Shown piece by piece: positions 852 to 20,588 of a DNA stretch of 20,588 nucleotides. The translations under genes and the position numbers were made by a program. The stretch comes from a virus. Its lineage: Duplodnaviria; Heunggongvirae; Uroviricota; Caudoviricetes. Location: IMG/VR virus record IMGVR_UViG_2531839584_000015; one strand, given 5' to 3'. The notes under the pieces were generated by a model. The model did not search any database. It was not told where the DNA came from and saw nothing but the letters and a program-made list of their open reading frames with translations. The stretch's first letter is position 1. Each line of letters opens with the position of its first letter.

Positions 852-909
852 TATAAGTACTCGCTAATATTGAACGATATATATATCAAATTATTATAAA
901 ACTCGTCAG

Positions 910-1344: not shown

Positions 1345-1647
1345 ATTGCTGTATCACTATGAAAATAAATGTGTTTTTATTTGATTTCACACATATCACA
1401 ATTGATGCATTTTTTAGTGATTAGTAAAGACATTTCAATGGATTACCGTTAAATCATTTTAAAATCAGTAAGTTGTATCGAGTTTGTATGCTTTACTGTC
1501 ATTAACTTACTGTATGTTGATCCAGTGTATTTAACCTTGATAAACTCAGTCCAGCAACACAAAACCGCAACACATTGCATTTTGTCCCGTAGAAAAGACT
1601 TGTATGTGTGAGCTTGTTTTCTGCGCCTACGCAGATAAGGATTGAGA

Positions 1648-3045
1648 ATGCCGCGCACTGTAACACATAATCCGGATAGCCCCAATAATGACGATGTTTT
1701 AGCCGCATCTGAAAAATGGGACGCCTGTAAACCCCCCTATACCAGCGCACACATGAAAATCTGTGTTGCTGCCGCCAAAATCATCCTCGCTGCTTCCGGC
1801 GTGGCTCGCCGTTCCAAATACGAAAAAGAGAACTATCTCCGTATCGATTTCAGCAAAGCCGGTAAGGTTACATTTTACGCCGAGTTTCCAAAAAAGATGG
1901 GCCTCAAGGGTAAAAAGCTCGGCGAGTGGCCGGAGCTCGCTATCCAGCTGGCGCGCGAAAAAGCGCTAGGTATGGCTGACGGTGGCTTGCGGGCAGAGTC
2001 CGTACATGCAGCGCTGGAAATGTACCGGGATGACCTCAAAGCCAAAGTCGCCCGGCAGAAGCTGAGCCCGGACAGTTTCACAACCTACGGGGTGCGTATC
2101 GACCGGATTAAAGCAACGTTCGGCGAGCGTGAGGTGTTCAGCGACGTAACATACAATCGGCTGGTGGAAGTGCTGGACGAGTGGATCGCCACTCGCTCGA
2201 ACAATAACGCCCTGGAGTTGTTTGCCGAGCTCCGTCGGTTCTGGAAGTTCTGCGCACCTACTCTTTGTAACGGTCGCAATGTTGCTGCCAGTCTGCCAGA
2301 TGATTATGTTTCCTCCCGCGTACAGAAACCCACCCCCACACGGCTTTTTACCGATATTGAGTCAATCGCCCGGCTCTGGCTCAATGTTGCCGCCTGCACC
2401 TCTGTACACCAGAAGAATGCTGTTCGCTTCATGATCATCACCGGCGTTCGTCCGATTAATGTCCATAACCTGCGCTGGGACTACGTTCACGAGGAGACTG
2501 GCGAAATTGTTTATCCTGAAGGGGTTATCGGCATGCGAGGGGCTATGAAAACACAAAAGGCTTTCCCCCTGCCAATAACGCCGGAGATCCGGCGGATTAT
2601 CGACGAGCAGAAAGCATGGCGTGATTCAGTTCCTGAGTGCAACAGGGATTATGTATTTTTGCAGCCGCGTGATCCAATGCAGCCATTTTCAAAACGATCA
2701 CTGGATAAGCTAGTGAAAACATACAGCCCGGATGGGGCTGTAAAAGGAATAAAACATGATGGGACTGTTAAAGGGAAAGACGGTGCATTTAATACGATGT
2801 GCCGTAAATTCCTTAAGAGCAATGTTATTGCCTTGATGAAGGAAAGAGGCTATTCCCGATCAGACCGAAGGGAAATCAGCCTCCTTTGCCTTCACCACTC
2901 CAGCAAGTCAGATGACCCGATGGCAGAACATTACGACTTTTCTGATGAGATTTTGCAGGAAGAGATTGCGTTAAAGCGCGAAGCTTTCGAGGCTCACGAG
3001 CGGAGCATACTTGCGCAGGTGGCATTGCTACGGCGGCGAGGGTAA
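1648..3045 (+). CDS. Tyrosine-type site-specific recombinase (phage integrase)
   Basis: ORF 1642..3045; ATG at 1648 is preceded by TAAGGA (1636..1641). C-terminal region has a catalytic-domain-like layout (R...H-x-x-R...Y: GVRPINVHNLRWDYV, LLCLHHSSKSD, AEHYDF). Confidence 0.8.
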   Translation: MPRTVTHNPDSPNNDDVLAASEKWDACKPPYTSAHMKICVAAAKIILAASGVARRSKYEKENYLRIDFSKAGKVTFYAEFPKKMGLKGKKLGEWPELAIQLAREKALGMADGGLRAESVHAALEMYRDDLKAKVARQKLSPDSFTTYGVRIDRIKATFGEREVFSDVTYNRLVEVLDEWIATRSNNNALELFAELRRFWKFCAPTLCNGRNVAASLPDDYVSSRVQKPTPTRLFTDIESIARLWLNVAACTSVHQKNAVRFMIITGVRPINVHNLRWDYVHEETGEIVYPEGVIGMRGAMKTQKAFPLPITPEIRRIIDEQKAWRDSVPECNRDYVFLQPRDPMQPFSKRSLDKLVKTYSPDGAVKGIKHDGTVKGKDGAFNTMCRKFLKSNVIALMKERGYSRSDRREISLLCLHHSSKSDDPMAEHYDFSDEILQEEIALKREAFEAHERSILAQVALLRRRG

Positions 3046-4636: not shown

Positions 4637-4703
4637 GGTATTGTATCTCCATGAATGAACTTATGTAGTAATAGCTTAATTATTTATTTCGAAAGGAACA
4701 GTT

Positions 4704-5582: not shown

Positions 5583-5605
5583 TAGATTCACATGGGGAGG
5601 GGGCT

Positions 5606-6377: not shown

Positions 6378-6381
6378 ATTT

Positions 6382-6940: not shown

Positions 6941-7152
6941 TCTTCGACCGCCTTACGCTTTTCACGCATATTCTGCATCAGGCAAAAATCAGATCTGCGT
7001 TCACTCCATTCCTGATTCAGTTCGTGATGTGATTCGCGGTTGGCTTTTGCCCAGACCTTCGCTGCCCGGTCATATTCGCCGGATTGTTCAAGTCGCAAAG
7101 CCTCCCTTGCAGCCCTGTAATAAAGTGGATTGTCCCGGTATTTAAATGACAT
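6937..7152 (-). CDS. Small phage protein, 71 aa, function unknown
   Basis: ORF packed between the polymerase and DUF4406 genes with a start/stop overlap. No confident family assignment. Confidence 0.45.
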   Translation of the reverse strand: MSFKYRDNPLYYRAAREALRLEQSGEYDRAAKVWAKANRESHHELNQEWSERRSDFCLMQNMREKRKAVEE

Positions 7153-7157
7153 AGGAG

Positions 7158-9221
7158 TTAATCCTTACGGTAGTGGTACGCCTCAAAACCGCCAGCGTTC
7201 AGTGGGATATCTGGCGCCCATTCGGGGTTAGTGGAGAGAAGCGCGGAAAGCGCTTTATCGTTGAAATCTTCTGTGTCAGGTGATTCGGTGATCACCTCGT
7301 CGTGTACCGTCAGCACAATGCTGTAACCGGCATCTTCGATAAGCGGCATGTTTCCGGCCAGAACGTCGCGGGCGGCCGCCTGGGTGACGTTCTCCACCAG
7401 CTTTCCGCCGTAGGTTTTGAGTCGTTGCCATTTACGCGAATAAGAGTTAACACCCATGTAGGTGATATTCCCTTGTTCGATAACCGGAGACGGGTAGCAT
7501 ACAGCGCGTCCGGATGGTAGCTGTATGCGCAGCCACGCGCCATCGCGGCGGATTTTAAGATAACCGCAATACAATGTTTTTTGCGGTGTGGCGATTGCTG
7601 TGCGGACGGTGCACTCCAGTTCGTACCAGAAATCACAGGTCGCGGGATGCGCCCGGCGCCAGAGACGTTTAAGTGAGTCGCAGGCGATAAATACCCGTTC
7701 AGAAAGCCCGTAGGTCGATTTACGTTTAACCGATTCGTCGTACCAGCTTTTCGCCTCGCGGATAACATCGCGGGGAATGTTTGGCAGTGCGGCGTTCGCC
7801 AGCCCGTCGAGATCGAGACCGTAAACCAGAGCAAAAGTGATGAAAGCCGATACACCTCCTCCATAACCCAGACCGAGTTCCATGACTTTACCGATCTGAC
7901 GCATGTGTTTATCAACATCATCTGGTGCAATATCGAAAGCTTTTGCATACGCCAGTTTATATAAGTCCGGACCCGTTCCGGCGTCGTACTCTCTGAATGC
8001 ATTCAGTTTCCATTCTTCTCCCGCCAGCCATGCCAGCATACGGCCTTCAATGTTCGACAAGTCACTTACCACCAGCTTTTTGCCTGTTGGCGCGATAATG
8101 CAGCCACGTAACGCTGAACTGGTTAGTTCCATGATATTGTCAAACAGCAGGTCTGCACATCCGGCTTTCAGTGCTTCGATGCCTTCGTCTATTTGTTCCT
8201 GTTTTAGTGAAGGGCGGGGAAGGTTCTGGGGCTGGAATAGCCGTCCGGCCCAACGACCGGTACGTGACGCCCCGCAGAACTGTAGCGTACCGCGTAAGCG
8301 CCCGTCGTGGCTTACGCCTTTCATCAGTGCCTTGTATTTACTGGTGCTGGTAGTACTGGCCTGCAGGCGGATAGCCAGCAGTTCTTTCACGGCAGATGGT
8401 AAATCGGGGTCGGCAATACGACGTTCCAGAGTACTGCGTTGCATGTCTGGTAGCTCCACACCGTAGGATTCAACAATGTGCTTAATCAACGCGTCTCGTT
8501 GTGTGGCTGCCTGCACTTCGCCATCAGTCATTTCCTGTGTACGCTTTGCCAGGCGCTTTTGTTCCTGGTCTACCGCGTCGATCGCAGCGCGTGCGAGTTC
8601 CACGTCCATGCAGACGCCCCGGTCATTGATCTGCTGATCACGATGCCAGAGCGCCAGTTCTGTCCCCTGATAATTCCACTTCGGCAGACGTTTATAGACT
8701 TCGCGCATTGCCTCGATATCCAGTCCGGCGTAAGCAACAAAGCGCCGCCATTCTTCCGGGTGGGTTTTGCTGGTGGCCCGGCGCAGTTTGCTGTTTTTCG
8801 GGCGTGGCTTACAGAACAGCTGGATCAGCGCTTTACCTTCTTTGTCCTTCGCTTTGTCTTGCGGGACGCCTAGTACTTCGCAGAGTTCCCCCAGAGACCC
8901 CGGGAGACCGTGCGCCAGCGCCTGCACCATCGTGTCGCGCCAACGTTCGACTGGCGGTGCCAGTCGCGGCATTGCATAACGCAGGACGGTGCGGTCGAAG
9001 TGAGAGTTATGAAAATAAAGCAGGGTTTCAGGGGCTGCGATTGCTTCGTATAAGCCGTGTGGAATACCACCACCGGCAGTGATATCCCATACGTTTACTG
9101 GCCCGTCGTTGATAGCCCATGCGAACAGCATCACTTCAACGCCTTCGGCATACGCATGGGTACCGTTCGTAATAGGGATTTCGCAATAGGTTTCCAGGTC
9201 GCCCCATAGTATATTGGACAT
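7158..9221 (-). CDS. Family A DNA polymerase with N-terminal 3'-5' exonuclease domain
   Basis: Exo I-like DLET near the N-terminus. Motif A DLSNIEGR, motif [13 protein letters not shown], motif C LTVHDE. Length 687 aa. Confidence 0.85.
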
Positions 9222-9267
9222 GTGTTTACCTTGGTTTTTATTCTATTAACTGATTAAAAGATTAATT

Positions 9268-9897
9268 ATGCATATGATCCAATACTTGATTGACCATACA
9301 GAGCATCTGGAGAAAATAGCTGGATATATTTTTTCATGTTTGATTGTTATGGGAGTCTGGATAAGAAAGATCATTTTTAATTATAAGTATAAAGAGCCTA
9401 AATATGTCAAGAAGTTAATTTTATATTTAGTTAAGTATGAACGTTATCTGGATAAGGAGGATAAGAGTGCCATAGAAAAAAGAATAAATGATAAAATTAT
9501 TCGTGATGCGCTGAAATTGCAATCTTCTTATAACCGAAGTGATGTTATTTACATTTGCAATAGATTAGAAAAAAGACAGTATATAAATCAGGTGATTAAG
9601 CTTCAGAATTATATAGAGAAAGATAACGGAGTGTTTTTCATCAATGTTAATTTTTCAGGTTTTTTATTTATTATTAGTCGTCTGTTTTCCTTTCTGTGTT
9701 TTGTGCTGTTTATCCTTTTTTCTATTATCTGCATTATTTCCATAGGGCAAAATGAAGGCCTTTTAAATTATCTTGTGTATATGGTTATGACAATAGTTTT
9801 AGAGACTGTTGGTTTTTGGATGTATGATACTTTCCCGTCTAAGAAGAAGATCTGTGAACTAAATAAAGAATTGAGGAAGATTAAGATTCCTGAGTGA
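9268..9897 (+). CDS. Hypothetical multi-pass membrane protein, 209 aa; AT-rich single-gene insertion
   Basis: Strongly hydrophobic segments (IFSCLIVMGVWI; FSGFLFIISRLFSFLCFVLFILFSIICIISIG; LVYMVMTIVLETVGFW). Lys/Ile/Tyr-rich, AT-rich codons. Opposite strand to the flanking replication genes. Confidence 0.55.
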   Translation: MHMIQYLIDHTEHLEKIAGYIFSCLIVMGVWIRKIIFNYKYKEPKYVKKLILYLVKYERYLDKEDKSAIEKRINDKIIRDALKLQSSYNRSDVIYICNRLEKRQYINQVIKLQNYIEKDNGVFFINVNFSGFLFIISRLFSFLCFVLFILFSIICIISIGQNEGLLNYLVYMVMTIVLETVGFWMYDTFPSKKKICELNKELRKIKIPE

Positions 9898-9915
9898 TTA
9901 TGCGCCTAATCAGCA

Positions 9916-9934
9916 GCCCGGTATTTAACCGGGC
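9916..9934. terminator. Hairpin between convergent genes (possible bidirectional terminator)
   Basis: GCCCGGT-ATTTA-ACCGGGC, a 7-bp stem with 5-nt loop in the 52-bp gap between 9268..9897 (+) and 9950..10498 (-). Flanking U-tracts are weak. Confidence 0.3.
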
Positions 9935-9949
9935 GTCTATGAAGTAGGG

Positions 9950-10498
9950 TTAAATCAGTGCTTCAGCATCAGCACCTTCGCTGATATCGTCGAAATCGTC
10001 AGCGCTTGCCACTCCGCCGACAGCGAATGCATCGCCGTCTCGCAGGAACTGGACTCCGCCGAGTGAGGCATTAATGCGTTTACCGAAATTATTGTCCTGT
10101 GCCCAGATATCGATAACGGCGTTTACATAGCACCCTGCATAGGGACGTCCATCAGCCTGAATAAGTGGCGAACGATCGCGATCAAGAACAGCTGGGCGCG
10201 CTTTGTTAGCAGCATTCAGGAAGAAATTGCCGGGGAAGCCTTCATACTCTGCTTTTTCATCACCATCATGCAGGCACAGATTGAGTTTTTTCTCCAGTTG
10301 GTTATAAATGGGCTCCCACTTCTCTCCCCATTTTTCCTTCGCTACCTGCTTCATAGCTTTACGGATTTCTTCCAGTTGTGGGTGTTTGGGTGACATTAAA
10401 AATACTGCGGAGAAACGTGGATCGCCTTCGCCGTTTACAGTTTTAGCTTCAAACAGAGACGGGAAGGCCAGACGAACATTGTTCAGCTTCAGTTTCAT
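9950..10498 (-). CDS. DUF2815-family phage protein (SSB-like)
   Basis: N-terminus MKLKLNNVRLAFPSLFE matches the conserved start of DUF2815 proteins, which usually sit next to DUF2800 in phage replication modules. Acidic C-terminal tail. Confidence 0.65.
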   Translation of the reverse strand: MKLKLNNVRLAFPSLFEAKTVNGEGDPRFSAVFLMSPKHPQLEEIRKAMKQVAKEKWGEKWEPIYNQLEKKLNLCLHDGDEKAEYEGFPGNFFLNAANKARPAVLDRDRSPLIQADGRPYAGCYVNAVIDIWAQDNNFGKRINASLGGVQFLRDGDAFAVGGVASADDFDDISEGADAEALI

Positions 10499-10513
10499 GG
10501 GTATTTCCTTAAA

Positions 10514-11815
10514 TCAGATGAGGTCTGCGGTTAGCGTATCGTCGGATACGTCGTCGAAATCATTTACAGGGTTGATATTGAGTGCGGGGCGTGGGTCTGA
10601 CTCGGGAACGATGGTGGGTTTACCATCAGCTCGTGTTATCAGTGCCTCGACTTTTGACCAACGGCGCGGACTGGCCTTTTTGATAAGTTTTTCGGCTTTT
10701 GTGGGGCTAATAAGTTTAAAGTCGAATACTTCTTCAGTTTTGTACCTGAACTGGTCCTTCAGAAGTGCGCGAGCTGCCTCTTCATCACTCCAGGCCCGGT
10801 TACCTTGTTTTCCTGTTACCAGTTTAAACCCCGGTACCGGATGTCCGGCATTGAGTTCATTGTGAACCCGGTCCCGTACTGCCTTTAGCCAGGACTCAAT
10901 AAAGTCGGCCTGGCTATAGATCTCCGCAAGCTGCTCAATGGTTAACAGAGGTACACGTGCGCTGGCATTGGTGATTATTTCGCTGACAGGCTTTGTCAGA
11001 TCTTCAAAGTCGCTGGCCGCTGTTTGTAAATGCTGCATTTTCTGGGCAGTGCAAATAGCTTTTGCTTTACAGAAGCGGCACTGTTTTTCTCCAGGTATGA
11101 AGTTTTCCAGCGGTAGTGTCTCAATGCCTTCGCATTCAGCAATATTGAGAACAAGGATCGCACTGGTTGCGGCCTCCTGTGCTCGTTTACCGAAAGACTG
11201 AAGTTCCTGCACGGTTAACGACCATTCTGAAACGTGGTTGAGCCTTGGCTGGTGAATAAATAATCTTACAGTCTCAAAGTCATACAGCATGCTGAATTGT
11301 TCGAGCGCACCCAGAGCATACAGTTGTAGTTGCTCATTTTGTTCTGCATCAATGCGGACGCCTTTGCCATATTTCAGGTCGTGGATTTGTAATTCGTTAC
11401 CAGCGATGATTATGCCGTCGGCAGTTCCGAAAGATTCTTCCACCCCCGTTATATGTGAGAAATCAACACGTTGTTCAACCAATAGTTCATTATTCTGTGC
11501 AAGAGTCCAGACCGTATCAACATACCGGCCAACGGCTTCGACCATTTCATCATCCACCTGTGGGCCAGATGTATCATCAGGATTTTCGCGAAGGGGGTAT
11601 GAGCCGAGAAACATAGAAACATTGCATCCGGCGTAGTGTTCCGGGTGGCTTTGCCTGTTTCGTAGAACTTTTTCAGCAAGCGCGTGCGCTGCAGTGCCCT
11701 CGATTGCAAAAGTTGTTTCTTTATCCGGTTGTGTGGCCTCCAGCGCCAGACTTCCTGGGCAGCGCATCCATCGATGCGCTGATGATGGAGAAAGTTGTGC
11801 ATGAACGTCTGGCAT
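10514..11815 (-). CDS. DUF2800-family PD-(D/E)XK nuclease (Cas4-like exonuclease)
   Basis: N-terminal [15 protein letters not shown] motif and a C-terminal cysteine cluster ([12 protein letters not shown]) are typical of DUF2800/Cas4-like nucleases. Confidence 0.65.
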
Positions 11816-11817
11816 GA

Positions 11818-12720
11818 TTAACCCTCCAGTGCTTTTTCAGCCAGGGTGATTACTTCAGCGAGATTTTCATCCGTTACTTCACCAAGTTTCCTGGCTCCCT
11901 GTTTTTCCAGAATTGCAATAGCTTCTGCCCGGTAACCCCCTTTTGCTAACTGGAGGATCAACCCTTCAGCTTGTTTGCGTAGTGCCGCGAAATCAATTGT
12001 ATGGTCATCTTTGGCGTCATTATTCTGGCTGGAATTTGCTGCGTCTCTGCGTGCAAATTCTTCCTGCAGCTGAAGGTACTCAACACGGTTGATCTCGATA
12101 TGGCCTTTTTTAAGCATCTCGTTCAACTTGCGTAAGGTGTGGAGTTCACTGGCTGCTGTGCCGGATACATTTTTGACGTAAAACGGCCCCGTGCGTTCTC
12201 CATCTTTGTTACTGGCCTTTTTCGGCTTAACTTCATCACGCCCATCTGCAGGTGCATCAAGTAGTTGCTCGGCAAAAGCACGTCGCTCGCCGATGGTTGG
12301 CAGGTCGTCCCAGAACTTAAGAATGTTACGGGACAGGTCCAGAAGAGCGGGTTTATGCAGTGCCCTGGCTCGTTTGACGCCCTGCAATGCGCTGTCGAGA
12401 GCATCAATCTGAACTACTCGTTTATCGCCTTCAGCATCACGGTAGGCAACAGCACGTTGCAGCATGTCTTCTGTGATAGGGGTGGCTACCGGGTAGAAAC
12501 CAGCCAGTGCGATAACGTCGCTGAACTCCAGATCATCCAGTGTCATTGCCGCTGACATATTTTCAGTTTCAGTTGCTGTATCCCGACATTCCTGCACTCG
12601 TGAAATCGTGTCAGGATGCATAACAATACCTGATGCCATCGTGCGGATAAGACGTTCAAGCAGCGCATTATGTTGTGCCAGAAGTTGATTATTAAGTTCG
12701 AGACTGGTTTCTAAACTCAT
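11818..12720 (-). CDS. Hypothetical phage protein, 300 aa, acidic
   Basis: ORF in track, tightly packed in the operon: 2-bp gap to DUF2800 and ATGA overlap with the upstream small ORF. No family recognised. Confidence 0.5.
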
Positions 12721-12866
12721 ACTGTGGTCCTCGCTACAAGGAGAATGAAAGTGATGATCAGACCGAGCGCAGTGGCAACGGCCAGACCGGTCATCAAATC
12801 GAAGTTTTTACGGCGATAACGGAGAACATCGCGCCCCGTCAGTCGATAGAAGTGTTCAGGTTTCAT
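12717..12866 (-). CDS. Small hydrophobic protein, 49 aa (not in ORF track)
   Basis: Hand translation of the minus strand gives [54 protein letters not shown] lies upstream of the ATG at 12866, and the stop overlaps the ATG of the 300-aa gene (ATGA). Confidence 0.4.
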   Translation of the reverse strand: MKPEHFYRLTGRDVLRYRRKNFDLMTGLAVATALGLIITFILLVARTTV

Positions 12867-12924
12867 CGGTTGTATTCCTTTTTTCATATCGGGGAGCGCG
12901 CTGTTGCGAGTGCGCTTTCAGACA

Positions 12925-12951
12925 TAAAAAAGCCCGTCACTTGCGGCGGGC
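12925..12951 (-). terminator. Putative intrinsic terminator inside the leftward early operon
   Basis: On the minus strand, GCCCG-(10 nt)-CGGGC hairpin followed by TTTTTT, between the zinc-finger gene and the downstream replication genes. Confidence 0.4.
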
Positions 12952-12982
12952 AAAGACTACACACAGCAATTACATGGATGAT

Positions 12983-13177
12983 TCAGTTGGTATTGTGCGT
13001 ACGTGGTACCACAAGGTTGAAGCGGACACGCCAGTGCGTTGCAATGGTATGCAGGAAAGCACCACATCCAGGGCAGTGCTCATAACATTCGTTGATTTGG
13101 TATCGTTTTGGCTTTGGTGTCTGAAGCTGTGTTTGGCAAGCAGGGCATTCACCTTTGAGCGGTTTATACGTTTTCAC
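12983..13177 (-). CDS. Small Cys4 zinc-finger protein, 64 aa; first gene of the leftward early operon
   Basis: CPAC...(17 aa)...CPGC arrangement. GTG start at 13177 with AGGAAA RBS upstream. Confidence 0.5.
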   Translation of the reverse strand: MKTYKPLKGECPACQTQLQTPKPKRYQINECYEHCPGCGAFLHTIATHWRVRFNLVVPRTHNTN

Positions 13178-13460
13178 GCCGTTTCCTCATTCAGTTCACT
13201 TTGGTGGTTCGGCGGCTTCGACTTGTATCAGTAGACAGTGCTTCGCCGCACCCCAAAGGGAACTTACTGACCCGTATTGCCGACATCCTGTCCCGCCACG
13301 GTCCCGACGCATGGTTTAGAGTCGCGCCGTTCGACTTGTGGCTAAAGATACAATTTGAGTTGTATTGTGTAAACCACAAATGTGGTATTTTGTGGGGTGT
13401 GAATACTACTTTATTGATATTTAAGTGAATTTAATTTGTAAGACTTTACAAATGGGGTAA

Positions 13461-13480
13461 GGGAGGCTGTTACGCCTCCC
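13461..13480 (-). terminator. GC-rich hairpin just downstream of the repressor gene
   Basis: GGGAGGC-(6 nt)-GCCTCCC, a 7-bp stem, lying 20-40 nt past the cI-like stop on the minus strand. U-tract is imperfect. Confidence 0.3.
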
Positions 13481-13499
13481 GATATTTACGGTGGGAATA

Positions 13500-14123
13500 C
13501 TAACGTTTACGGCGGTAAATACGGTGTTCGATCATTACACCTATGATCTGTAAGTTCATATCTGCACTACGAAAAATAGGGTAATCAGGATTTAGGGGGA
13601 TTAATTCAAAGTCGTCGATGCCGATTCCTAATGGACGGTATTTTTTAAATGTAGCTTCGTGACCGTCGTTTTTGGCGACAACAAACTCCCCTGGTGCAGG
13701 ACATAGATCAGGATCGATGATAACAATGTCTCCTTCTTTAAACTCTGGTTGCATGCTGTCGCCATCAATACGTAATGCGAAGCATGTTTCTGGAATGTCA
13801 GAGTCTGCCAAAATATATTCAAATTCCCCTGTCAGATCTGTTATGTCTCTTGCTTCTGTAAGCTCTCCTGCCTGAACGTAACTTAATATAGGTATGCGTC
13901 TGGTACTTATCTCCGCGAGAGGCATAATATTTTTACCGTTCAGTAGCCAGTCTGGGCTACATTTCAAGGCCTTAGCCAGATCCAGAAGATTGCGCGGCTT
14001 TCTGGTTCGTCCACTTTCGATGGATTCTATGGATTGTTGGCTAACCCCTGCAGAATTCGCTACTTCCACTTGAGTCATTCCTAATTCCAAACGACGTGCT
14101 TTAAAACGGGCTGCGAGAGACAT
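13500..14123 (-). CDS. cI-like phage repressor (XRE-type HTH + LexA-like S24 peptidase domain)
   Basis: HTH LGMTQVEVANSAGVSQQSIESIE; Ala-Gly cleavage site (VQAGEL); Ser/Lys dyad context (GDSMQPEF, VVAKNDG). Start taken at ATG 14123 (MSLAARF...) with AAGGA RBS; the track ORF extends 17 codons further upstream. Confidence 0.8.
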   Translation of the reverse strand: MSLAARFKARRLELGMTQVEVANSAGVSQQSIESIESGRTRKPRNLLDLAKALKCSPDWLLNGKNIMPLAEISTRRIPILSYVQAGELTEARDITDLTGEFEYILADSDIPETCFALRIDGDSMQPEFKEGDIVIIDPDLCPAPGEFVVAKNDGHEATFKKYRPLGIGIDDFELIPLNPDYPIFRSADMNLQIIGVMIEHRIYRRKR

Positions 14124-14243
14124 GGGATTAGTCCTTCTGGGTTGTATTAATGTGTATACCCACATTAAAAACAATTTTTGTTGTATTTGACAAACCTCGT
14201 TTGTTGTTGCTAAATACCACTAAAATTGTATGAGGTGAAAGCA
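14124..14243. promoter_or_regulatory. Divergent cI/cro promoter-operator region
   Basis: Perfect inverted repeat TTAATGTG-N6-CACATTAA at 14147..14168. TTGACA at 14187..14192, followed 18 bp later by TAAATA, faces the cro-like gene. Confidence 0.5.
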
Positions 14244-14456
14244 ATGACCTTAGCGACCCGAGTAAAAGAACGACGTAAAGAACTCAAAATGACGCAAGTT
14301 ACGTTGGCTGAGCTCACAGGAGTGAGCCAGCAGGCAATAAACAGAATTGAAAGTGGTGTTATTGCTCGGCCACGTTATCTTCTTGAAATGTCTATAGCAT
14401 TGGATTGCGACCCTAATTGGCTGTTGTATGGCTCACAAAACGATAAAAAGGCTTAA
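14244..14456 (+). CDS. Cro-like XRE-family HTH regulator
   Basis: LKMTQVTLAELTGVSQQAINRIESG HTH. ATG at 14244 has GAGGTGA 5 nt upstream. Divergent from the cI-like gene; stop lies 3 bp before the primase start. Confidence 0.75.
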   Translation: MTLATRVKERRKELKMTQVTLAELTGVSQQAINRIESGVIARPRYLLEMSIALDCDPNWLLYGSQNDKKA

Positions 14457-14459
14457 CCC

Positions 14460-16646
14460 ATGTCCGATAGCAAACCATGGGGAGCTACGCCTGATGAGTG
14501 GTTTCATTTCGACCTGGTATTGGGGAGAACTGAGCATCTTCTCCCAGTTGTATGTAACCCCGGTGCGACCATATCCCCTGATAGTAAACTGAAAGCGCTG
14601 GGCAAGACGCCAAGTCGCTATAACCGGGACCGCCAGGTCACCGGTATTGCTCAATGGACCGGGTATGTTGTTACTGAGCATGATTTTGCCCGCTGGTCGA
14701 ATGAACCGGATTATGGCATCTGCGTGCGTACAGGCCATGGCTGGCTGGCGCTGGACTGCGATAGCGAAGATGAAGACATTCAGGCAGATATTCGCAAAAC
14801 GCTTGTGCAACTTCTGGGGGAGTTGCCGCCGCGACGCTGGCGAGCAAACAGTAATAAGTGTCTGTATCTGCTGGCCGTTGATGGTGATTTCCGTAAGCGT
14901 ATCCATCGCCTGGCGGGGGATATGGGCATTATCGAGTTGCTGGCGAACGGGCAGCAGTTCGTTGCCTGTGGTACGCACAGCAGCGGCGCGCGTATTGAAT
15001 GGGACGGTGGTTTGCCGGATGAACCTCCGGCTATTACTGGTGAGCAGCTTGAAACGCTGTGGCAGCGCCTGGCTGAACAACTCCCTGTGTCGGTAACCAC
15101 CGAAGCGGGCAACACGAAGATGCGCGACCGATCAGCATTCACGCCCGGCGCGACGGATGATACAGCTGAATATCTTGATGCCAATGGCTGGACGCTGCTG
15201 GATGGCGCAAATGGTGAACGATATATCCGCTGTCCGTTTGAAGACGGCCACAGTAGCGGGGGCGATCCAACAAGCACAGCTTATTTTCCTGCGGGAACCG
15301 CGGGCTTTGAGCAGGGGCATTTTAAATGCCTGCATGCCAGTTGTGCGCATCGTGATGACGGAGATTTCCTTAATGCCATCGGGATCCGCAACGACGATTT
15401 CGAAGATCTGACCAGCACCGAAGTGGCGGAACCTTTACCGCTGCCTGCTTTCGAGCGTGATAAATGGGGGCGTATCGAGGCAACCATCAGCAACGCAGCC
15501 AAAGCAGTAGTACGCCCTGATTTTGTGGACATCGATATTCGCTTTGACCAGTTCCGCGACGAAATCATGTTTGCCCCTGCAGGATCCGGACAATGGCGAG
15601 CATTCACCGATGCGGATTATGCGCGCCTGCGCATCACGATGGAAAAGCGGGGATTTAAACCTGTTGGTCGTGAACTTATTCGCGATGTGGTGTTACTTGC
15701 AGCCGATGAACAACCATTCGATTCAGCGATCACCTGGCTGAACGGGCTGGAGTGGGATGGCGTGCCGCGCATCGAATGTTTCTACCATACGCACTTCGGT
15801 ACAGCCAACACGCCTTATACCCGTGCGGTGTCTATGTACATGTGGACCGCGTTGGCGGGGCGAGTACTGGAGCCAGGCATCAAAGCGGATATGGTGCCGA
15901 TCCTCGTTGGTCCGCAGGGCTGCGGTAAGTCTTCCGGAGTGGAGGCACTGAGCCCTGATCCTGCGTTTTTTACTGAAATCTCTTTTGCCGAAAAAGACGA
16001 TGATCTCGCTCGAAAAATGCGTGGTCGGCTGGTGGCAGAGATTGGTGAACTGCGCGGACTTAATACCAAAGAGCTGGAGTCAATCAAAGCGTTTGTGACA
16101 CGTACTCACGAAAACTGGATCCCGAAATACCGGGAGTTCGCCACCCAGTTTCCTCGTCGCCTGGTGTTCGTTGGTACCACCAATGAGGACGAATTCCTTG
16201 CGGACAAGACTGGTAACCGTCGCTGGCTCCCCGTGGAAGTGTCGAAAGTCGACGTGAAAGCGATAAAAAGAGATCTCCTTTTACTTTGGGCTGAGGCTCG
16301 TGAGGTGTTTCAGCGTCTGGGGGGTATCCAGTTCCGTGAGGCTGAACAACTGGCAGCGAGTGTCCATGAACAGTACACCATCAAGGATGCTTGGCTTGAA
16401 ACGGTAGAGAAATGGCTCGACACGCCAGACCTGATGACTAATGAACTTCCGCGAAATTGCGAATTTTTACGCGCAAGTGATGTTTTGCGTGATGCGATTG
16501 GGCTAAATCCTGACCGCATCGGAAAACGCGAAGAAATGCGAATTAGTAATGTTTTGCAAAATTGCGGGTATAAGCGTGCCCAAAGGCGAATTGGGGGGAA
16601 AAAATGCAAGGTTTGGGAACCGCTGGAACCACGCGGAACCACCTAG
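14460..16646 (+). CDS. Replication initiator: primase-polymerase (Prim-Pol) N-terminal domain + zinc-binding region + VirE/P4-type P-loop NTPase
   Basis: 728 aa. Walker A GPQGCGKSS in the C-terminal half. Cys/His cluster CPFEDGHSSGG...HFKCLHASCAH. N-terminal acidic catalytic-like segment LALDCDSEDED. Operonic with cro. Confidence 0.7.
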   Translation: MSDSKPWGATPDEWFHFDLVLGRTEHLLPVVCNPGATISPDSKLKALGKTPSRYNRDRQVTGIAQWTGYVVTEHDFARWSNEPDYGICVRTGHGWLALDCDSEDEDIQADIRKTLVQLLGELPPRRWRANSNKCLYLLAVDGDFRKRIHRLAGDMGIIELLANGQQFVACGTHSSGARIEWDGGLPDEPPAITGEQLETLWQRLAEQLPVSVTTEAGNTKMRDRSAFTPGATDDTAEYLDANGWTLLDGANGERYIRCPFEDGHSSGGDPTSTAYFPAGTAGFEQGHFKCLHASCAHRDDGDFLNAIGIRNDDFEDLTSTEVAEPLPLPAFERDKWGRIEATISNAAKAVVRPDFVDIDIRFDQFRDEIMFAPAGSGQWRAFTDADYARLRITMEKRGFKPVGRELIRDVVLLAADEQPFDSAITWLNGLEWDGVPRIECFYHTHFGTANTPYTRAVSMYMWTALAGRVLEPGIKADMVPILVGPQGCGKSSGVEALSPDPAFFTEISFAEKDDDLARKMRGRLVAEIGELRGLNTKELESIKAFVTRTHENWIPKYREFATQFPRRLVFVGTTNEDEFLADKTGNRRWLPVEVSKVDVKAIKRDLLLLWAEAREVFQRLGGIQFREAEQLAASVHEQYTIKDAWLETVEKWLDTPDLMTNELPRNCEFLRASDVLRDAIGLNPDRIGKREEMRISNVLQNCGYKRAQRRIGGKKCKVWEPLEPRGTT

Positions 16647-16805
16647 AAGAGAAGGTGGTTCCACCTTGCAGACCTTGTGGCAAGCGGGGCGGAACTACTG
16701 GAACCACTGGAACCGCCTTTCTACTAGAAACCCCATATATATATATAAGTCGATTGAGGGAAAGGTTAGGAAAAGGTGGTTCCAGGTGGGGGCAGGTGGT
16801 TCCAC
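16616..16805. repeat. Putative origin of replication: iteron arrays flanking an AT-rich (AT)7 tract
   Basis: GGAACC(A/G)C-type repeats at 16616, 16625, 16635, 16691 (GGAACT), 16700 and 16709, spaced about 9-10 bp. Inverted copies GGTGGTTCC at 16654, 16775 and 16795. AT-rich CCCCATATATATATATAAG at 16731..16749. Overlaps the 3' end of the primase gene. Confidence 0.6.
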
Positions 16806-16806
16806 T

Positions 16807-16849
16807 CCGCATTAGCAACTTTTTGCATGTTGATACATGCAATATGCGG
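16807..16849. promoter_or_regulatory. Nested palindrome upstream of the Q-like gene (candidate operator)
   Basis: TTGCATGT-TGAT-ACATGCAA (16823..16842) nested inside CCGCAT...ATGCGG (16807..16849). Confidence 0.35.
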
Positions 16850-16934
16850 ATCGGAACTGCGTTATCCACACCCACGGATATACAGACGTAGTTCTCAGAA
16901 AATTTTTTCGTAGCAAAACGTAGAGGTCAGAGCT

Positions 16935-17357
16935 ATGCGTAATATTCAACAGGTTTTAGAGCGCTGGGGTGGCTGGGCAGCGAGTGAAGGTGGTAGCGTC
17001 TACTTTCCTCCTGTTGCAGCCGGGTTTAAGAATCTGCTACCCGCGACGCAGTCTGGAAGGCTGAAATGCAGTGACAATGACGGTCTTATCATCAACTCCG
17101 CTATGAGCTGCTTGAAGAAAAAAGATCCGTATCTGTGCACGCTCCTTGAGTGGCATTACGTCCAGGCCATGCCCGTGAGGGCGATGGGTGAGAAGCTCGG
17201 CGTATCTCACACCCACGTTCTGAAGAGGCTTCAGGCGGCAGAGGGATTTATTGACGGTTGCTTAGCCATGCTGGATGTGGTGCTCGAAATGGATCAGTCG
17301 GTTCAGTCAAAGCCTCAGGCTATCAGGACTTTGCGTAGGAGCTGCTCGGCGGCATAA
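16935..17357 (+). CDS. Phage antitermination protein Q (QuuD-like, Phage_antitermQ family)
   Basis: N-terminus MRNIQQVLERWGGWAA...AAGFK and C-terminal KRLQAAEGFIDGCLAMLDVVLEMD closely resemble E. coli prophage QuuD-type Q proteins as I recall them. Confidence 0.8.
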   Translation: MRNIQQVLERWGGWAASEGGSVYFPPVAAGFKNLLPATQSGRLKCSDNDGLIINSAMSCLKKKDPYLCTLLEWHYVQAMPVRAMGEKLGVSHTHVLKRLQAAEGFIDGCLAMLDVVLEMDQSVQSKPQAIRTLRRSCSAA

Positions 17358-17388
17358 TATCCAGCAATCAATCACGTAAGGGAACCAG

Positions 17389-17730
17389 ATGGCTCTGATC
17401 AGCGTTCGCAACAGATTTGAAAGCTTCATGGAACAGAGGTACCCAGACCTGTCGTTGCAGGTCAAAGGTAATATTGGCGCATCAATGAAGGCTCAACTTG
17501 GCATCAGGATTGAACGAGAATTGTACAGTGAAGATGTTACTTACTGTGATTCAGCAGTTCAGTTGATGTGGACACTCTTTCAGGCAGGTGTTCTGGCCGA
17601 ACGAAGAGCTACCAGCGTTACGCTTCCTGCGCTGAAGGCAAAGCCGGATAGCTTCTACGATGCGGGTTATAACGAAGGTATTCAGGACTGTCGTAAACAT
17701 CTGACGGCATCAGGCATCAAGGTAAGATAA
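17389..17730 (+). CDS. Hypothetical protein, 113 aa, co-transcribed with Q
   Basis: ORF with AAGGGA RBS 31 bp after the Q stop. No family recognised. Confidence 0.5.
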   Translation: MALISVRNRFESFMEQRYPDLSLQVKGNIGASMKAQLGIRIERELYSEDVTYCDSAVQLMWTLFQAGVLAERRATSVTLPALKAKPDSFYDAGYNEGIQDCRKHLTASGIKVR

Positions 17731-17797
17731 AAAATAGTTGTGGAATTCCAAAAAGCCGATTAGCCTGATATCTGTTGAAAACAGTTCATCACGAAGA

Positions 17798-17821
17798 GGC
17801 TCCCGCAAGGGGGCCTTTTTT
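17798..17821 (+). terminator. Rho-independent terminator
   Basis: GGCTCCC-GCAA-GGGGGCC hairpin (one G-U wobble pair) followed by TTTTTT. Confidence 0.7.
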
Positions 17822-17974
17822 AATGCTCTATTCTCAGTAAAAGTTAATAAAACAGGGTTTTCGTCGCGAAAAAACGCTATGCAGTTTTTGCCCTTTTTTA
17901 TGCACCTTTTATTCACTCGAATTTCGTCATTCTGGACCACTTAAGTTGATTAAATAGGCCTTTCATCGCAAATC

Positions 17975-18794
17975 GGCACTGTTGCAAAGTTAGCGATGAG
18001 GCAGCCTTTTGTCTTATTCAAAGGCCTTACATTTCAAAAACTCTGCTTACCAGGCGCATTTCGCCCAGGGGATCACCATAATAAAATGCTGAGGCCTGGC
18101 CTTTGCGTAGTGCACGCATCACCTCAATACCTTTGATGGTGGCGTAAGCCGTCTTCATGGATTTAAATCCCAGCGTGGCGCCGATTATCCGTTTCAGTTT
18201 GCCATGATCGCATTCAATCACGTTGTTCCGGTACTTAATCTGTCGGTGTTCAACGTCAGACGGGCACCGGCCTTCGCGTTTGAGCAGAGCAAGCGCGCGA
18301 CCATAGGCGGGCGCTTTATCCGTGTTGATGAATCGCGGGATCTGCCACTTCTTCACGTTGTTGAGGATTTTACCCAGAAACCGGTATGCAGCTTTGCTGT
18401 TACGACGGGAGGAGAGATAAAAATCGACAGTGCGGCCCCGGCTGTCGACGGCCCGGTACAGATACGCCCAGCGGCCATTGACCTTCACGTAGGTTTCATC
18501 CATGTGCCACGGGCAAAGATCGGAAGGGTTACGCCAGTACCAGCGCAGCCGTTTTTCCATTTCAGGCGCATAACGCTGAACCCAGCGGTAAATCGTGGAG
18601 TGATCGACATTCACTCCGCGTTCAGCCAGCATCTCCTGCAGCTCACGGTAACTGATGCCGTATTTGCAGTACCAGCGTACGGCCCACAGAATGATGTCAC
18701 GCTGAAAATGCCGGCCTTTGAATGGGTTCATGTGCAGCTCCATCAGCAAAAGGGGATGATAAGTTTATCACCACCGACTATTTGCAACAGTGCC
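17975..18794 (-). mobile_element. IS26 (IS6 family), complete 820-bp copy
   Basis: 14-bp terminal inverted repeats GGCACTGTTGCAAA at 17975..17988 and the reverse complement at 18781..18794. Internal transposase matches Tnp26. Flanking 8-mers differ (CGCAAATC vs ACGTAATG), so there is no target-site duplication. Confidence 0.95.
18027..18731 (-). CDS. tnp26: IS26 transposase Tnp26 (DDE), 234 aa
   Basis: Protein MNPFKGRHFQRDIILWAVRWYCKYGISYRELQEMLAERGVNVDHSTIYRWVQRYAPEMEK... is the canonical IS26 transposase. The track ORF starts 6 codons upstream (MLMELH). Confidence 0.95.
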   Translation of the reverse strand: MNPFKGRHFQRDIILWAVRWYCKYGISYRELQEMLAERGVNVDHSTIYRWVQRYAPEMEKRLRWYWRNPSDLCPWHMDETYVKVNGRWAYLYRAVDSRGRTVDFYLSSRRNSKAAYRFLGKILNNVKKWQIPRFINTDKAPAYGRALALLKREGRCPSDVEHRQIKYRNNVIECDHGKLKRIIGATLGFKSMKTAYATIKGIEVMRALRKGQASAFYYGDPLGEMRLVSRVFEM

Positions 18795-19296
18795 ACGTAA
18801 TGCGCTGAACTGTGCAGGATGCGAGCTGATTTTTGAAGACAAGATAAGCGGCACAAAGTCCGAAAGGCCGGGACTGAAAAAACTGCTTAGGACATTATCG
18901 GCAGGTGACACTCTGGTTGTCTGGAAGCTGGACCGACTGGGGCGCAGTATGCGGCATCTTGTCGTGCTGGTGGAGGGGTTGCGCGAACGAGGCATTAACT
19001 TTCGTAGTCTGACGGATTCAATTGATACCAGCACACCGATGGGGCGTTTTTTCTTTCATGTGATGGGTGCCCTGGCTGAAATGGAACGAGAACTGATTGT
19101 TGAACGAACAAAAGCTGGACTGGAAGCTGCTCGCGCACAGGGACGAATTGGTGGACGTCGTCCCAAACTTACACCAGAACAATGGGCGCAGGCCGGGCGA
19201 CTAATTGCATCAGGAGTTCCTCGCCAGAAGGTGGCGATCATTTATGATGTTGGCGTATCGACTTTGTATAAGAAGTTTCCGGTCGGAGATAAATGA
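18795..19296 (+). pseudogene. Pin/Gin/Hin-family serine DNA invertase, 5'-truncated by IS26 (catalytic serine region missing)
   Basis: Translation RNALNCAGCELIFEDKISGTKSERPGLKKLL...GRFFFHVMGALAEMERELIVERTKAGL... aligns from about residue 19 of Pin/Gin. Homology starts exactly at the IS26 boundary. The N-terminal MLIGYVRVST segment with the active-site Ser is absent. Confidence 0.8.
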
Positions 19297-19376
19297 AACC
19301 GTAGCACGTCGTATGCAAGAACGTGCCACGGCTGGCTGATAAGCTTGTAAAAATATTGAACAGGGAGTGGAGCATT

Positions 19377-20024
19377 CTATGAAGCTAATTTGTTTAATTT
19401 CATTTGTAGTGACTTTACTTCTTGGTCGATAATGTCGAATCCCTTATTGACAGCATCTCTTAGCTCTGCATCAATATTTTTTATCCCTTGAGCATAATCT
19501 ACCATTACATTTATTTTTGCATCATGTAATCTTTTATACATGGTTTTATCTTTGTTATTGTCTGCCATGCCAATAAGGATTTTTTCATAATCCTCAATGA
19601 GTTTGTTGTTTCCTTTAAATGATTGTATTAATGAGCGTGAATATGTGTATATGTTAATTATTGAGTCTCTAGCAGAATCATTTAGTTTTGCAATGACATT
19701 CGCATTTTGCTCATAGAATGTGAAATTATCATCCCCTACAGGGAATGTGAGAATCAACATTTGTCCCGGTTTTATATTATCAATGTGTGTTTTCATCCTT
19801 TTATTATATAAATTGATTAGGGTGAAAACTTCTCCCTTAACTCCTTTTAATACTGAAAGTTGTAATTCAAGGGATTCTCTTTCTGTCTCTACTTTAGACA
19901 GCTTAGCTTGTTGGGTGACTCCTTTTAGGGTAAACCATCCGCCAATAAGAGTACCAACTAGAGCTGTGAGGGAGGAGGATAACCATCCAGGTATGCTATT
20001 TAAAAGATTACTAAATTCACTCAT
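19377..20024 (-). CDS. Hypothetical membrane-anchored protein, 215 aa (second copy of 204..851)
   Basis: Protein identical to 204..851 in the ORF track; part of the terminal duplication. Confidence 0.55.
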   Translation of the reverse strand: MSEFSNLLNSIPGWLSSSLTALVGTLIGGWFTLKGVTQQAKLSKVETERESLELQLSVLKGVKGEVFTLINLYNKRMKTHIDNIKPGQMLILTFPVGDDNFTFYEQNANVIAKLNDSARDSIINIYTYSRSLIQSFKGNNKLIEDYEKILIGMADNNKDKTMYKRLHDAKINVMVDYAQGIKNIDAELRDAVNKGFDIIDQEVKSLQMKLNKLAS

Positions 20025-20082
20025 TATAAGTACTCGCTAATATTGAACGATATATATATCAAATTATTATAAAACTCGTCAG

Positions 20083-20517
20083 CTACTGGAGAAGGCTACC
20101 TGAACTTCGAACTATTCCTGCATCCATATAGTTGATGGTCTTCTGGAGCTCTTCGATTAGGGCAACAGCTTTTGCTCGAGAAATGCATATTAGTTGATCC
20201 GGAAATTCTTGTAAGGGCCAGTTTGGTATACAGGCCATGTTATCAGTGAAGGATGCAGACAAGTAAACTTCATTGGTAACCAGAGAATAGCTTACCTCAA
20301 AATTGGTGAGTTCCGGCAAACTGCTAACGTTTGACTCTTTTCTGCGCATAATATTATCCATGACTGTAATTATGTACAGGTGATGGTCTTCAATTTCGAA
20401 GAGGGAGTCAAGGGGGAGTCTCAAATGAACCGTTATAGAAAAGGGGGGGATCTTTGTGTTGCTGAACTTATGCAAAATTTTTTTGCACCATAAATCCAAC
20501 AACACATTCAATAACAC
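20083..20517 (-). CDS. Hypothetical protein, up to 144 aa (second copy of 910..1344)
   Basis: Protein identical to 910..1344; same start-site uncertainty. Confidence 0.4.
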   Translation of the reverse strand: MLLNVLLDLWCKKILHKFSNTKIPPFSITVHLRLPLDSLFEIEDHHLYIITVMDNIMRRKESNVSSLPELTNFEVSYSLVTNEVYLSASFTDNMACIPNWPLQEFPDQLICISRAKAVALIEELQKTINYMDAGIVRSSGSLLQ

Positions 20518-20588
20518 ATTGCTGTATCACTATGAAAATAAATGTGTTTTTATTTGATTTCACACATATCACAATTGATGCATTTTTT

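What the first reader, a model, noticed from the sequence alone, without database searches (positions are those of the whole stretch)
17967..18802. IS26 without target-site duplication truncates the invertase: signature of an IS26-mediated deletion
IS26 normally generates 8-bp target duplications; here the flanking 8-mers differ (CGCAAATC vs ACGTAATG). The right end abuts codon 18-19 of a Pin/Gin-type invertase, removing its catalytic serine, while the left end abuts unrelated sequence after the Q-operon terminator. The simplest reading is an IS26-driven adjacent deletion that removed the 5' end of the invertase and probably an invertible segment or the late region. IS26 also marks the element as exposed to plasmid-type resistance-gene traffic.
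Basis: partly seen in the sequence, partly recalled or inferred. Interest (0 to 1): 0.55.

Follow-up and report, generated by a model that had tools for sequence, protein, structure and literature searches.

The report
IS26 deletion gutted a prophage
A single copy of the common resistance-associated insertion sequence IS26 sits where 23.4 kb of an E. coli prophage (all lysis, head, tail and tail-fibre-switch genes plus the first 18 codons of its DNA invertase) used to be: a textbook, ordinary IS26-associated deletion.

Summary
Window 17975-18794 is an 820-bp IS26, 100% identical to canonical copies, with perfect 14-bp inverted repeats. Its 8-bp flanks differ (CGCAAATC / ACGTAATG). Its right end cuts a Pin/Gin-type invertase inside codon 18, removing the catalytic Ser9.

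An intact copy of the same prophage lies between yfhL and yfhH in E. coli L3_CS7_E2980 and ETEC-2264. Both flanks match it at 100%. Exactly 23,371 bp are missing: holin, lysozyme, terminase, head, tail, baseplate, tail fibres, the invertible segment and pin nt 1-53.

The most likely route is intramolecular replicative transposition in cis. Recombination between two direct IS26 copies cannot be excluded, because no intermediate was found. Only this one draft contig bridges the IS26, so a repeat collapse is a small residual risk.

The window is a whole draft contig (APXC01000024.1). Its ends overlap by 1415 bp and it carries attP, so it represents a 19,173-bp excised circle or a tandem copy.

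One side observation is mildly novel. Five independent IS26 junctions in diverged invertase genes fall at nt 48-54. By homology to Hin, this is the centre of the Fis-dependent recombinational enhancer.

Overall this is known biology and of low interest.

The parts
17975..18794 (-). IS26, complete 820-bp copy; the transposase reads on the minus strand
   Evidence: 100% identity over 820 bp to annotated IS26; perfect 14-bp terminal inverted repeats at 17975-17988 and 18781-18794
18027..18731 (-). tnp26, the 234-aa DDE transposase
   Evidence: Pfam DDE_Tnp_IS240 2.4e-48 and rve 1e-8; called as a 234-aa gene in the source contig
17967..17974 (.). Left flanking 8-mer CGCAAATC; the last prophage bases before the deletion
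   Evidence: In the intact prophage this 8-mer is followed by TATTGCGAGC...
18795..18802 (.). Right flanking 8-mer ACGTAATG, equal to pin nt 54-61; it does not match the left 8-mer
18795..19296 (+). 5'-truncated Pin/Gin-type DNA invertase (third base of codon 18 to the stop). An in-frame GTG at 18790 inside the IS26 end gives the annotated 168-aa ORF (WP_001388888.1)
   Evidence: 100% identical to reference pinE nt 54-555. Pfam Resolvase match begins at profile position 26, plus HTH_7. Intact PinE aligns 1-181 with Gin structures 3UJ3/4M6F. Protein name
16935..17357 (+). Antiterminator Q gene of the prophage (upstream context)
   Evidence: Pfam Phage_antitermQ 5e-42; annotated as such in the reference
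17389..17730 (+). 113-aa ORF after Q; the last intact gene before IS26
   Evidence: PF26207 Phage_phiTE_015 on record
17793..17820 (+). G+C-rich hairpin followed by a U-run, terminator-like, between ORF113 and IS26
   Evidence: RNA fold -21.1 kcal/mol, z -3.2; not flagged by the consensus scan
19377..20024 (-). 215-aa hypothetical gene between pin and attR of the prophage; a second identical copy is at 204-851
   Evidence: no Pfam match
1386..1423 (.). att core (attP form): the 38 bp shared by the alignments to attL and attR of the integrated reference prophage. Repeated at 20559-20588, where the contig end cuts it
   Evidence: blastn: window 1386-17974 equals the attL side, and window 1-1423 equals the attR side
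19174..20588 (.). Exact repeat of window 1-1415. This is the contig end overlap, implying a 19,173-bp circle or a tandem copy
   Evidence: 0 mismatches in 1415 bp
1642..3045 (+). Tyrosine integrase of the prophage, retained
   Evidence: Pfam Phage_integrase; annotated in the reference

Best explanation
An IS26 copy entered a roughly 41.8-kb myovirus-type prophage that integrates at the 5' end of yfhL. A second IS26-dependent step then removed the 23,371 bp between the region just downstream of the Q module and nt 53 of the invertase gene pin. The most likely route is intramolecular replicative transposition in cis. In that route the 3'-OH ends of a resident IS26 attack a target on the same strand of the same molecule. 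The DNA between IS and target leaves as a circle carrying one IS copy, and the retained molecule keeps one IS26 flanked by one old and one new 8-mer, hence no duplication.

Shown:
- the IS26 identity;
- the non-matching flanks;
- the exact deletion endpoints and the content of the missing segment;
- the loss of Ser9.

Inferred:
- the chemistry of the deleting step;
- which end was the original insertion site.

Consequences:
- The remnant keeps int, the CI-like repressor, the replication module (DNA polymerase A, helicase, VapE primase, DUF2800, DUF2815) and Q.
- It has lost lysis, packaging, head, tail and the tail-fibre inversion switch.
- The invertase fragment is catalytically dead.
- The contig carries attP, so the remnant apparently still excises, or is tandemly duplicated.
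For: - IS26 is complete and canonical, and its flanks differ.
- Window 16938-17974 and 18795-20588 are each 100% identical to NZ_LR882978.1, at positions 23,371 bp apart. The annotated genes between them run from holin to pinE.
- Window 1386-17974 is about 100% identical to ETEC-2264 and L3_CS7_E2980.
- The same IS26|pin junction occurs in two more draft assemblies. One of them continues through attR into yfhH-tadA-mltF-purL, so the right junction is reproducible and sits at the normal chromosomal site.
- Established knowledge: IS26 copies without target-site duplication, and deletions next to a single IS26, are the expected products of intramolecular replicative transposition in cis (He et al. 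2015, PMC4471558; Varani et al. 2021, PMC7986276).
Against: - No intermediate was found. That would be an IS26 with a matching duplication at either endpoint in an otherwise intact prophage (junction pattern absent from viral, genome and metagenome contigs). A one-step event is therefore not distinguishable from two insertions followed by recombination.
- Only the window contig bridges the IS26. The two sibling contigs stop inside it.
- The reciprocal circle cannot be observed.
Confidence: 0.62

Rival explanations
1. Two independent IS26 insertions in direct orientation, one after the Q module and one in pin, each with its own duplication. RecA-dependent homologous recombination or Tnp26-mediated conservative recombination between the two copies then removed the late region as a translocatable-unit-like circle.
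For: This route gives exactly the same end product: one IS26 with non-matching flanks. Both routes to such circles are recognised in the literature (PMC7986276). The pin 5' region appears to be a recurrent IS26 target and can receive a simple insertion, as in FORC_081 with duplication TTGCAACG.
Against: It needs two insertions in the same orientation in one prophage plus a third event. No genome with either single insertion at these exact sites was found.
Confidence: 0.27
2. Assembly artefact. The real genome has two IS26 copies flanking an intact late region, or the prophage flanks belong to different IS26 copies, and the draft assembler collapsed the 820-bp repeat and closed an 18.35-kb segment into a false circle.
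For: The window is a 2013 short-read draft contig (APXC01000024.1). The two sibling assemblies break inside IS26, at window 18021 and 18555, and do not bridge it. IS26 is usually multicopy.
Against: Both flanks lie in one prophage in the orientation expected for a deletion. The late tail-fibre protein of this prophage was not seen in any of the three assemblies among the places that could be listed, although that listing was incomplete. Sibling contigs run 240-774 bp into IS26, which argues against a highly repeated element.
Confidence: 0.08
3. Simple IS26 insertion whose 8-bp duplication or invertase 5' end was missed because of sequence error or misreading.
Against: The left flank is 100% identical for 16.6 kb to the Q-side of the prophage, not to pin. 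The 8-mers share no register. pin nt 1-53 occur nowhere in the window: the pin alignment starts at nt 54.
Confidence: 0.01

Closest known systems
IS26-mediated deletions by intramolecular replicative transposition in cis, as catalogued in clinical plasmids (He et al. 2015 mBio, PMC4471558) and reviewed for the IS6/IS26 family (Varani et al. 2021, PMC7986276)
   Same: A single canonical IS26 with no 8-bp duplication, a partial gene left at one end, and flanks that are collinear but distant in an intact relative.
   Different: The target is a chromosomal or excised prophage rather than a resistance plasmid. No resistance gene is involved. Both breakpoints can be defined to the base because intact relatives exist.
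IS26 translocatable units (Harmer, Moran and Hall 2014, PMC4196232)
   Same: The window as assembled is formally a circle of one IS26 plus 18,353 bp of adjacent DNA.
   Different: The circle contains attP, so it is best explained by Int-mediated excision of the deleted prophage, or by a tandem copy. The true reciprocal product (IS26 plus the late region) is not observed.
Pin/Gin/Cin/Hin DNA invertases with a Fis-dependent enhancer inside the 5' coding region (Gin structures 3UJ3 and 4M6F; Hin invertasome, McLean et al. 2013, PMC3798978)
   Same: The intact allele aligns end to end with Gin at E=3e-93. In the reference prophage it sits next to an invertible tail-fibre/assembly-gene segment.
   Different: Here the gene lacks codons 1-17 (Ser9, Arg7), its crossover sites, its invertible segment and the proximal half of the presumed enhancer. 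It cannot act as a recombinase.
Escherichia phages vB_EcoM-689R2, vB_EcoM-611R5 and vB_EcoM-606R2 (ON470582, ON470588, ON470579) and the yfhL-integrated prophage of ETEC-2264 and L3_CS7_E2980
   Same: The early/replication region is 97-100% identical.
   Different: Those elements are complete, at 36-43 kb; the window element is a 19.2-kb remnant.

Membership tests
IS26 (IS6/IS26 family) | 820-bp element with 14-bp perfect terminal inverted repeats GGCACTGTTGCAAA | tested here: met
   820/820 identity to annotated IS26
IS26 (IS6/IS26 family) | Single 234-aa DDE transposase Tnp26 | tested here: met
   ORF 18027-18731 on the minus strand; Pfam DDE_Tnp_IS240 2.4e-48
IS26 (IS6/IS26 family) | 8-bp target-site duplication after simple cointegrate resolution | tested here: not met
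   Flanks are CGCAAATC and ACGTAATG. This is expected to be lost after intramolecular events, so it does not bear on membership (PMC4471558)
IS26-mediated adjacent deletion (intramolecular replicative transposition in cis) | The two flanks of one IS are collinear and in the same orientation in an intact relative, and the intervening DNA is missing exactly from the IS ends | tested here: met
   Window 17974 corresponds to L007 1037 and window 18795 to L007 24409, both at 100% identity on the same strand
IS26-mediated adjacent deletion (intramolecular replicative transposition in cis) | A precursor with one IS26 carrying a duplication at one endpoint, or nested deletions sharing one anchored end | tested here: inconclusive
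   None found in 5,426 complete E. coli genomes, PLSDB, or three contig collections
IS26-mediated adjacent deletion (intramolecular replicative transposition in cis) | A reciprocal circle carrying IS26, the deleted segment and a copy of the target 8-mer | not testable with these tools
   Needs reads or an experiment
Pin/Gin/Hin/Cin serine DNA invertases | Resolvase-type catalytic domain plus a C-terminal HTH_7 domain, about 185-190 aa | tested here: met
   Pfam PF00239 and PF02796. The intact allele aligns 1-181 with Gin 3UJ3 at 3e-93
Pin/Gin/Hin/Cin serine DNA invertases | Catalytic serine (Ser9) in the N-terminal YxRVST motif | tested here: not met
   The window copy starts at codon 18 and the Pfam profile match starts at position 26. 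It is a pseudogene of the family, not a functional member
Pin/Gin/Hin/Cin serine DNA invertases | An adjacent invertible segment with tail-fibre C-termini and assembly genes, bounded by crossover sites | tested here: not met
   Present in the reference prophage by annotation (oppositely oriented tail-fibre and assembly genes upstream of pinE) but deleted in the window
Pin/Gin/Hin/Cin serine DNA invertases | A Fis-dependent recombinational enhancer in the 5' coding region | not tested
   Inferred only. Pin nt 22-36 (GTATCAACAAATGAC) and nt 71-85 fit G-N13-C cores. Pin codons 16-20 match the ATTTA...TAATG segment said to lie between the Hin Fis sites (PMC3798978). The Hin sequence alignment is from memory

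The most novel reading that the evidence does not exclude
The centre of the Fis-bound recombinational enhancer, which lies inside the 5' coding region of Pin/Gin/Cin-type invertase genes, is a preferred target for IS26 strand transfer. This makes phage tail-fibre switches, and the late regions next to them, recurrent casualties of IS26.

Evidence so far:
- Among 11 independent IS26|invertase junctions found in complete E. coli genomes, plasmids and this window, 5 fall at pin nt 48-54.
- Those five are 730V1 (nt 48), FORC_081 (nt 49, with duplication TTGCAACG), the P1-like plasmid pTHO-010-4 (nt 49), TUM12357 (nt 52) and this window (nt 54).
- Their invertase alleles are only 76-94% identical, and both IS26 orientations occur.
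- A uniform-placement simulation gives p of about 5e-5, but this test was chosen after seeing the data.
- Three more junctions share nt 135, at an A6 tract.
Probability: 0.2. Interest if true: 0.5.

Novelty: already known. Interest (0 to 1): 0.22.

Why it matters
It is a clean, base-resolved example of IS26 trimming a prophage. One event removed every gene needed to lyse the cell or build particles. It left the integrase, repressor and replication genes, producing a domesticated remnant that apparently can still excise.

It also shows that the annotated "site-specific DNA recombinase" WP_001388888.1 is a dead fragment whose start codon is supplied by the IS26 end.

None of this changes what is known about IS26. 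Only the recurrent targeting of the invertase 5' region would add something new about how a clinically important insertion sequence chooses targets, and only if it were confirmed.

Tried and rejected
1. Pseudo-IR targeting. The FORC_081 target (CACCGATTTGCAACG) resembles the IS26 end (CACCGACTATTTGCAACAGTGCC). However, this prophage's own pin reads GATCTACAACG and P1-like cin reads TTTACAAAG. In a scan of the 41.8-kb intact prophage the pin site is not among the best inverted-repeat-like sites. I rejected this as a general explanation.

2. Searches for the source or for intermediates. A junction pattern (IS26 end, 0-30 nt, AATGCRCTGAAYTG) gave 0 hits in viral, genome and metagenome contigs. 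No complete E. coli genome or PLSDB plasmid has either exact junction.

3. Testing whether the late region survives elsewhere in the source assembly. Look-ups through cluster members listed only 10 of at least 24 contigs, and none was from the three assemblies. This is inconclusive.

4. A hybrid promoter from the IS26 outward -35 driving the pin remnant. No acceptable -10 lies at 16-18 bp (read from the sequence; one search lists none).

5. The circle as an IS26 translocatable unit. I rejected this because the circle contains attP, which needs Int-mediated excision or a tandem prophage.

6. A literature search for the Hin enhancer sequence gave only a textual description, not the sequence.

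Full report
**Check of the observation.** Window 17975-18794 is an 820-bp element. It starts with GGCACTGTTGCAAA and ends with the exact reverse complement. It is 820/820 identical to IS26 as annotated in at least 5000 plasmid records. It encodes a 234-aa transposase on the minus strand (18027-18731) that matches Pfam DDE_Tnp_IS240 at 2e-48. The eight bases on either side are CGCAAATC and ACGTAATG, so there is no 8-bp target-site duplication.

**The invertase.** The ORF to the right (18790/18795-19296) carries the Pfam Resolvase and HTH_7 domains, but the Resolvase match begins only at profile position 26 of 145. The intact allele from a reference prophage is 184 aa and begins MLIGYVRVSTNDQNTDLQRNAL. 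It aligns residue 1-181 with the Gin invertase structures 3UJ3 and 4M6F at E=3e-93. The window copy is 100% identical to that allele from nt 54, the third base of codon 18. Residues 1-17, including Ser9 of the YVRVST motif, are therefore missing. A GTG inside the IS26 end (18790) is in frame. This explains why the fragment is annotated in GenBank/RefSeq as a 168-aa "site-specific DNA recombinase", WP_001388888.1.

**What was there before.**
- Window 1386-17974 is about 100% identical to a prophage in E. coli ETEC-2264 (NZ_CP023349.1) and L3_CS7_E2980 (NZ_LR882978.1).
- In the latter the prophage lies between yfhL and yfhH. Its gene order is int, helicase, DNA polymerase A, DUF2815, DUF2800, LexA/CI-like repressor, VapE primase, Q, a 113-aa ORF, holin, lysozyme, terminase, portal, head, tail, baseplate, tail fibre, oppositely oriented tail-fibre and assembly genes (the invertible segment), pinE, a 215-aa ORF, then attR.
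- blastn places window 16938-17974 on L007 1-1037 and window 18795-20588 on L007 24409-26202. Both matches are 100% identical and on the same strand.
- Exactly 23,371 bp are therefore replaced by the IS26: L007 1038-24408, running from 201 bp upstream of the holin start to pin nt 53.
- The left breakpoint lies in the intergenic stretch after Q and ORF113, about 150 bp past a strong hairpin plus U-run at 17793-17820 (-21 kcal/mol). The consensus terminator scanner did not list this hairpin.

**Origin and topology of the window.**
- The truncated invertase protein is encoded on three NCBI draft contigs.
- One of them, APXC01000024.1 of GCA_000356305.2, is 20,588 bp long and is the window itself.
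- Its first 1415 bp are repeated exactly at its end.
- Window 1-1423 aligns to the attR side of the integrated prophage and 1386 onward to the attL side. The contig therefore carries attP with a 38-bp core.
- The contig is thus a 19,173-bp circle, or a tandem copy, of the deleted prophage.
- In GCA_000356085.2 the same junction continues through attR into yfhH, tadA, mltF and purL, which is the integrated state.
- In GCA_000355015.2 a 2.6-kb contig ends at the same base in the att core as the window does, as expected if attP and attR forms coexist.
- The remnant therefore probably still excises. This is an inference.

**Mechanism.** IS26 moves by replicative cointegrate formation. When the target is in the same molecule and on the same strand, the DNA between the IS and the target is lost as a circle, and the remaining IS has non-matching flanks (PMC4471558; PMC7986276). 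The structure here fits that description exactly, and I take it as the most likely route (0.62).

The same product would arise from two direct IS26 insertions followed by recombination between them (0.27). Only an intermediate could separate the two routes. None was found in 5,426 complete E. coli genomes, in PLSDB, or in the viral, genome and metagenome contig collections.

A residual concern (0.08) is that only this one short-read contig bridges the 820-bp repeat. The sibling contigs stop inside IS26 at window 18021 and 18555. I could not show that the late genes are absent from the source assembly. Sequence error hiding a duplication is excluded.

**Side observation: recurrent junctions in invertase genes.**

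I searched with IS26 joined to pin in either orientation. This recovered every complete E. coli genome or plasmid in which IS26 abuts a pin-family gene. I read each junction directly. The first retained pin nucleotide in each case is:

| Pin nt | Record | Notes |
|---|---|---|
| 48 | 730V1 | IS26 in the opposite orientation |
| 49 | FORC_081 | simple insertion, duplication TTGCAACG |
| 49 | pTHO-010-4 | P1-like plasmid; invertible segment gone |
| 52 | TUM12357 | large chromosomal deletion |
| 54 | this window | |
| 135 | I4, T16R, PC6 | both IS26 orientations; two different invertase alleles |
| 19 | pCREC1123 | plasmid |
| 103 | LF3-1 | |
| 307 | E06 and CS18F | |

- The five alleles in the nt 48-54 cluster are only 76-94% identical to one another, and their offsets differ, so the events are independent.
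- Under uniform placement, five of eleven events in a 7-nt window has p of about 5e-5. The test was chosen after seeing the data, and the search favoured junctions that retain the pin 3' part.
- A resemblance of one target to the IS26 inverted repeat does not hold for the other alleles.
- McLean et al. (PMC3798978) state that the segment joining the two Fis sites of the Hin enhancer contains ATTTA and TAATG.
- From my memory of the hin sequence, this segment is homologous to pin codons 16-20 (GAT CTA CAA CGT AAT G), which is where the cluster lies.
- G-N13-C cores occur at pin nt 22-36 and 71-85, which puts the midpoint near nt 53.
- That IS26 prefers the centre of the Fis-bent enhancer is therefore a hypothesis worth testing, not a result.

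**Verdict.** The event is a well-understood kind of IS26-associated deletion, made by a canonical IS26, in a public draft genome. Interest is low, and the kind is already known. The only mildly novel element is the apparent IS26 hot spot in the 5' region of invertase genes.

Noticed in passing
window 1-1415 and 19174-20588; att core 1386-1423: The window is an entire draft contig (APXC01000024.1) with identical 1415-bp ends and an attP junction. It is a 19,173-bp circular or tandem form of the deleted prophage. A sibling contig ends at the same base in the att core. This suggests that excised and integrated forms coexist and that the remnant, which keeps int and a full replication module but has no lysis genes, still excises.
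   Followed up: partly
pin nt 48-54 (window 18795 is nt 54); L002, L005, L006, L020: Five independent IS26 junctions, in invertase alleles 76-94% identical, cluster within 7 nt. By homology to Hin this is the middle of the Fis-dependent recombinational enhancer. Simulation gives p of about 5e-5, chosen after seeing the data.
   Followed up: partly
pin nt 135; L008 (I4), L018 (T16R), L021 (PC6): A second recurrent junction, IS26|GAAAAAACTGCTCAGG, at an A6 tract. It occurs in both IS26 orientations and in two invertase alleles (94% and 78% identical to this pin). The first 26 nt after the junction are identical in all three, so spread by recombination is not excluded.
   Followed up: partly
window 18790-19296: The terminal GTGCC of IS26 supplies an in-frame GTG start, so the dead invertase fragment is annotated as a complete 168-aa 'site-specific DNA recombinase' (WP_001388888.1). 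At junctions nt 49 and 52, ORFs start 39 nt inside IS26 (MISLSPPTICNSA...) and are likewise annotated as pinE or as a recombinase.
   Followed up: partly
L026 and L032 (AQDM01000096.1, AQDB01000092.1), locus positions 1-21: Sibling draft assemblies from the same sequencing project carry this prophage's late region but diverge from the reference inside the baseplate-J gene, about 1 kb upstream of the tail-fibre gene and near a contig end. The joined sequence (CGGTTCAGGCTGTACGCTTAC) is not an IS26 end and is absent from the window. This is another rearrangement of the same prophage.
   Followed up: partly
L015 positions 1-20 (Salmonella Montevideo, ABJJEO010000100.1): A Salmonella contig begins at ATCTACAACGTAATG, which is pin nt 45 by my count and 9 nt upstream of the window's junction. 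The 'partial' invertase occurs in three assemblies. This is consistent with a repeat or IS boundary in the same hot region, but the element is unknown.
   Followed up: no
L020 1460-2330 (E. coli 730V1): Here IS26 lies between two serine-recombinase genes that face away from each other, both truncated at their 5' ends. The left one starts at ...YARVSTSHQ. This hints at an IS26-mediated inversion or fusion between two recombinase loci.
   Followed up: no
L016 3320-3345 and hits H223-H240: In many resistance plasmids IS26 ends 4 nt upstream of the ATG of a resolvase-family gene (WP_000583524.1; IS26|CAAAATGATAATCGGCTATGCGCG). This is probably one widely spread ancestral junction.
   Followed up: no
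window 1386-1433: The prophage att core overlaps the 5' end of yfhL (4Fe-4S ferredoxin). In lysogens the yfhL start codon and upstream region are supplied by phage DNA.
   Followed up: no
L006 4562-4655 (pTHO-010-4): The P1-like plasmid carries a second, inverted 94-nt fragment homologous to the invertase 5' end, downstream of the IS26-truncated cin-like gene. It overlaps the retained part, so it comes from another copy.
   Followed up: no
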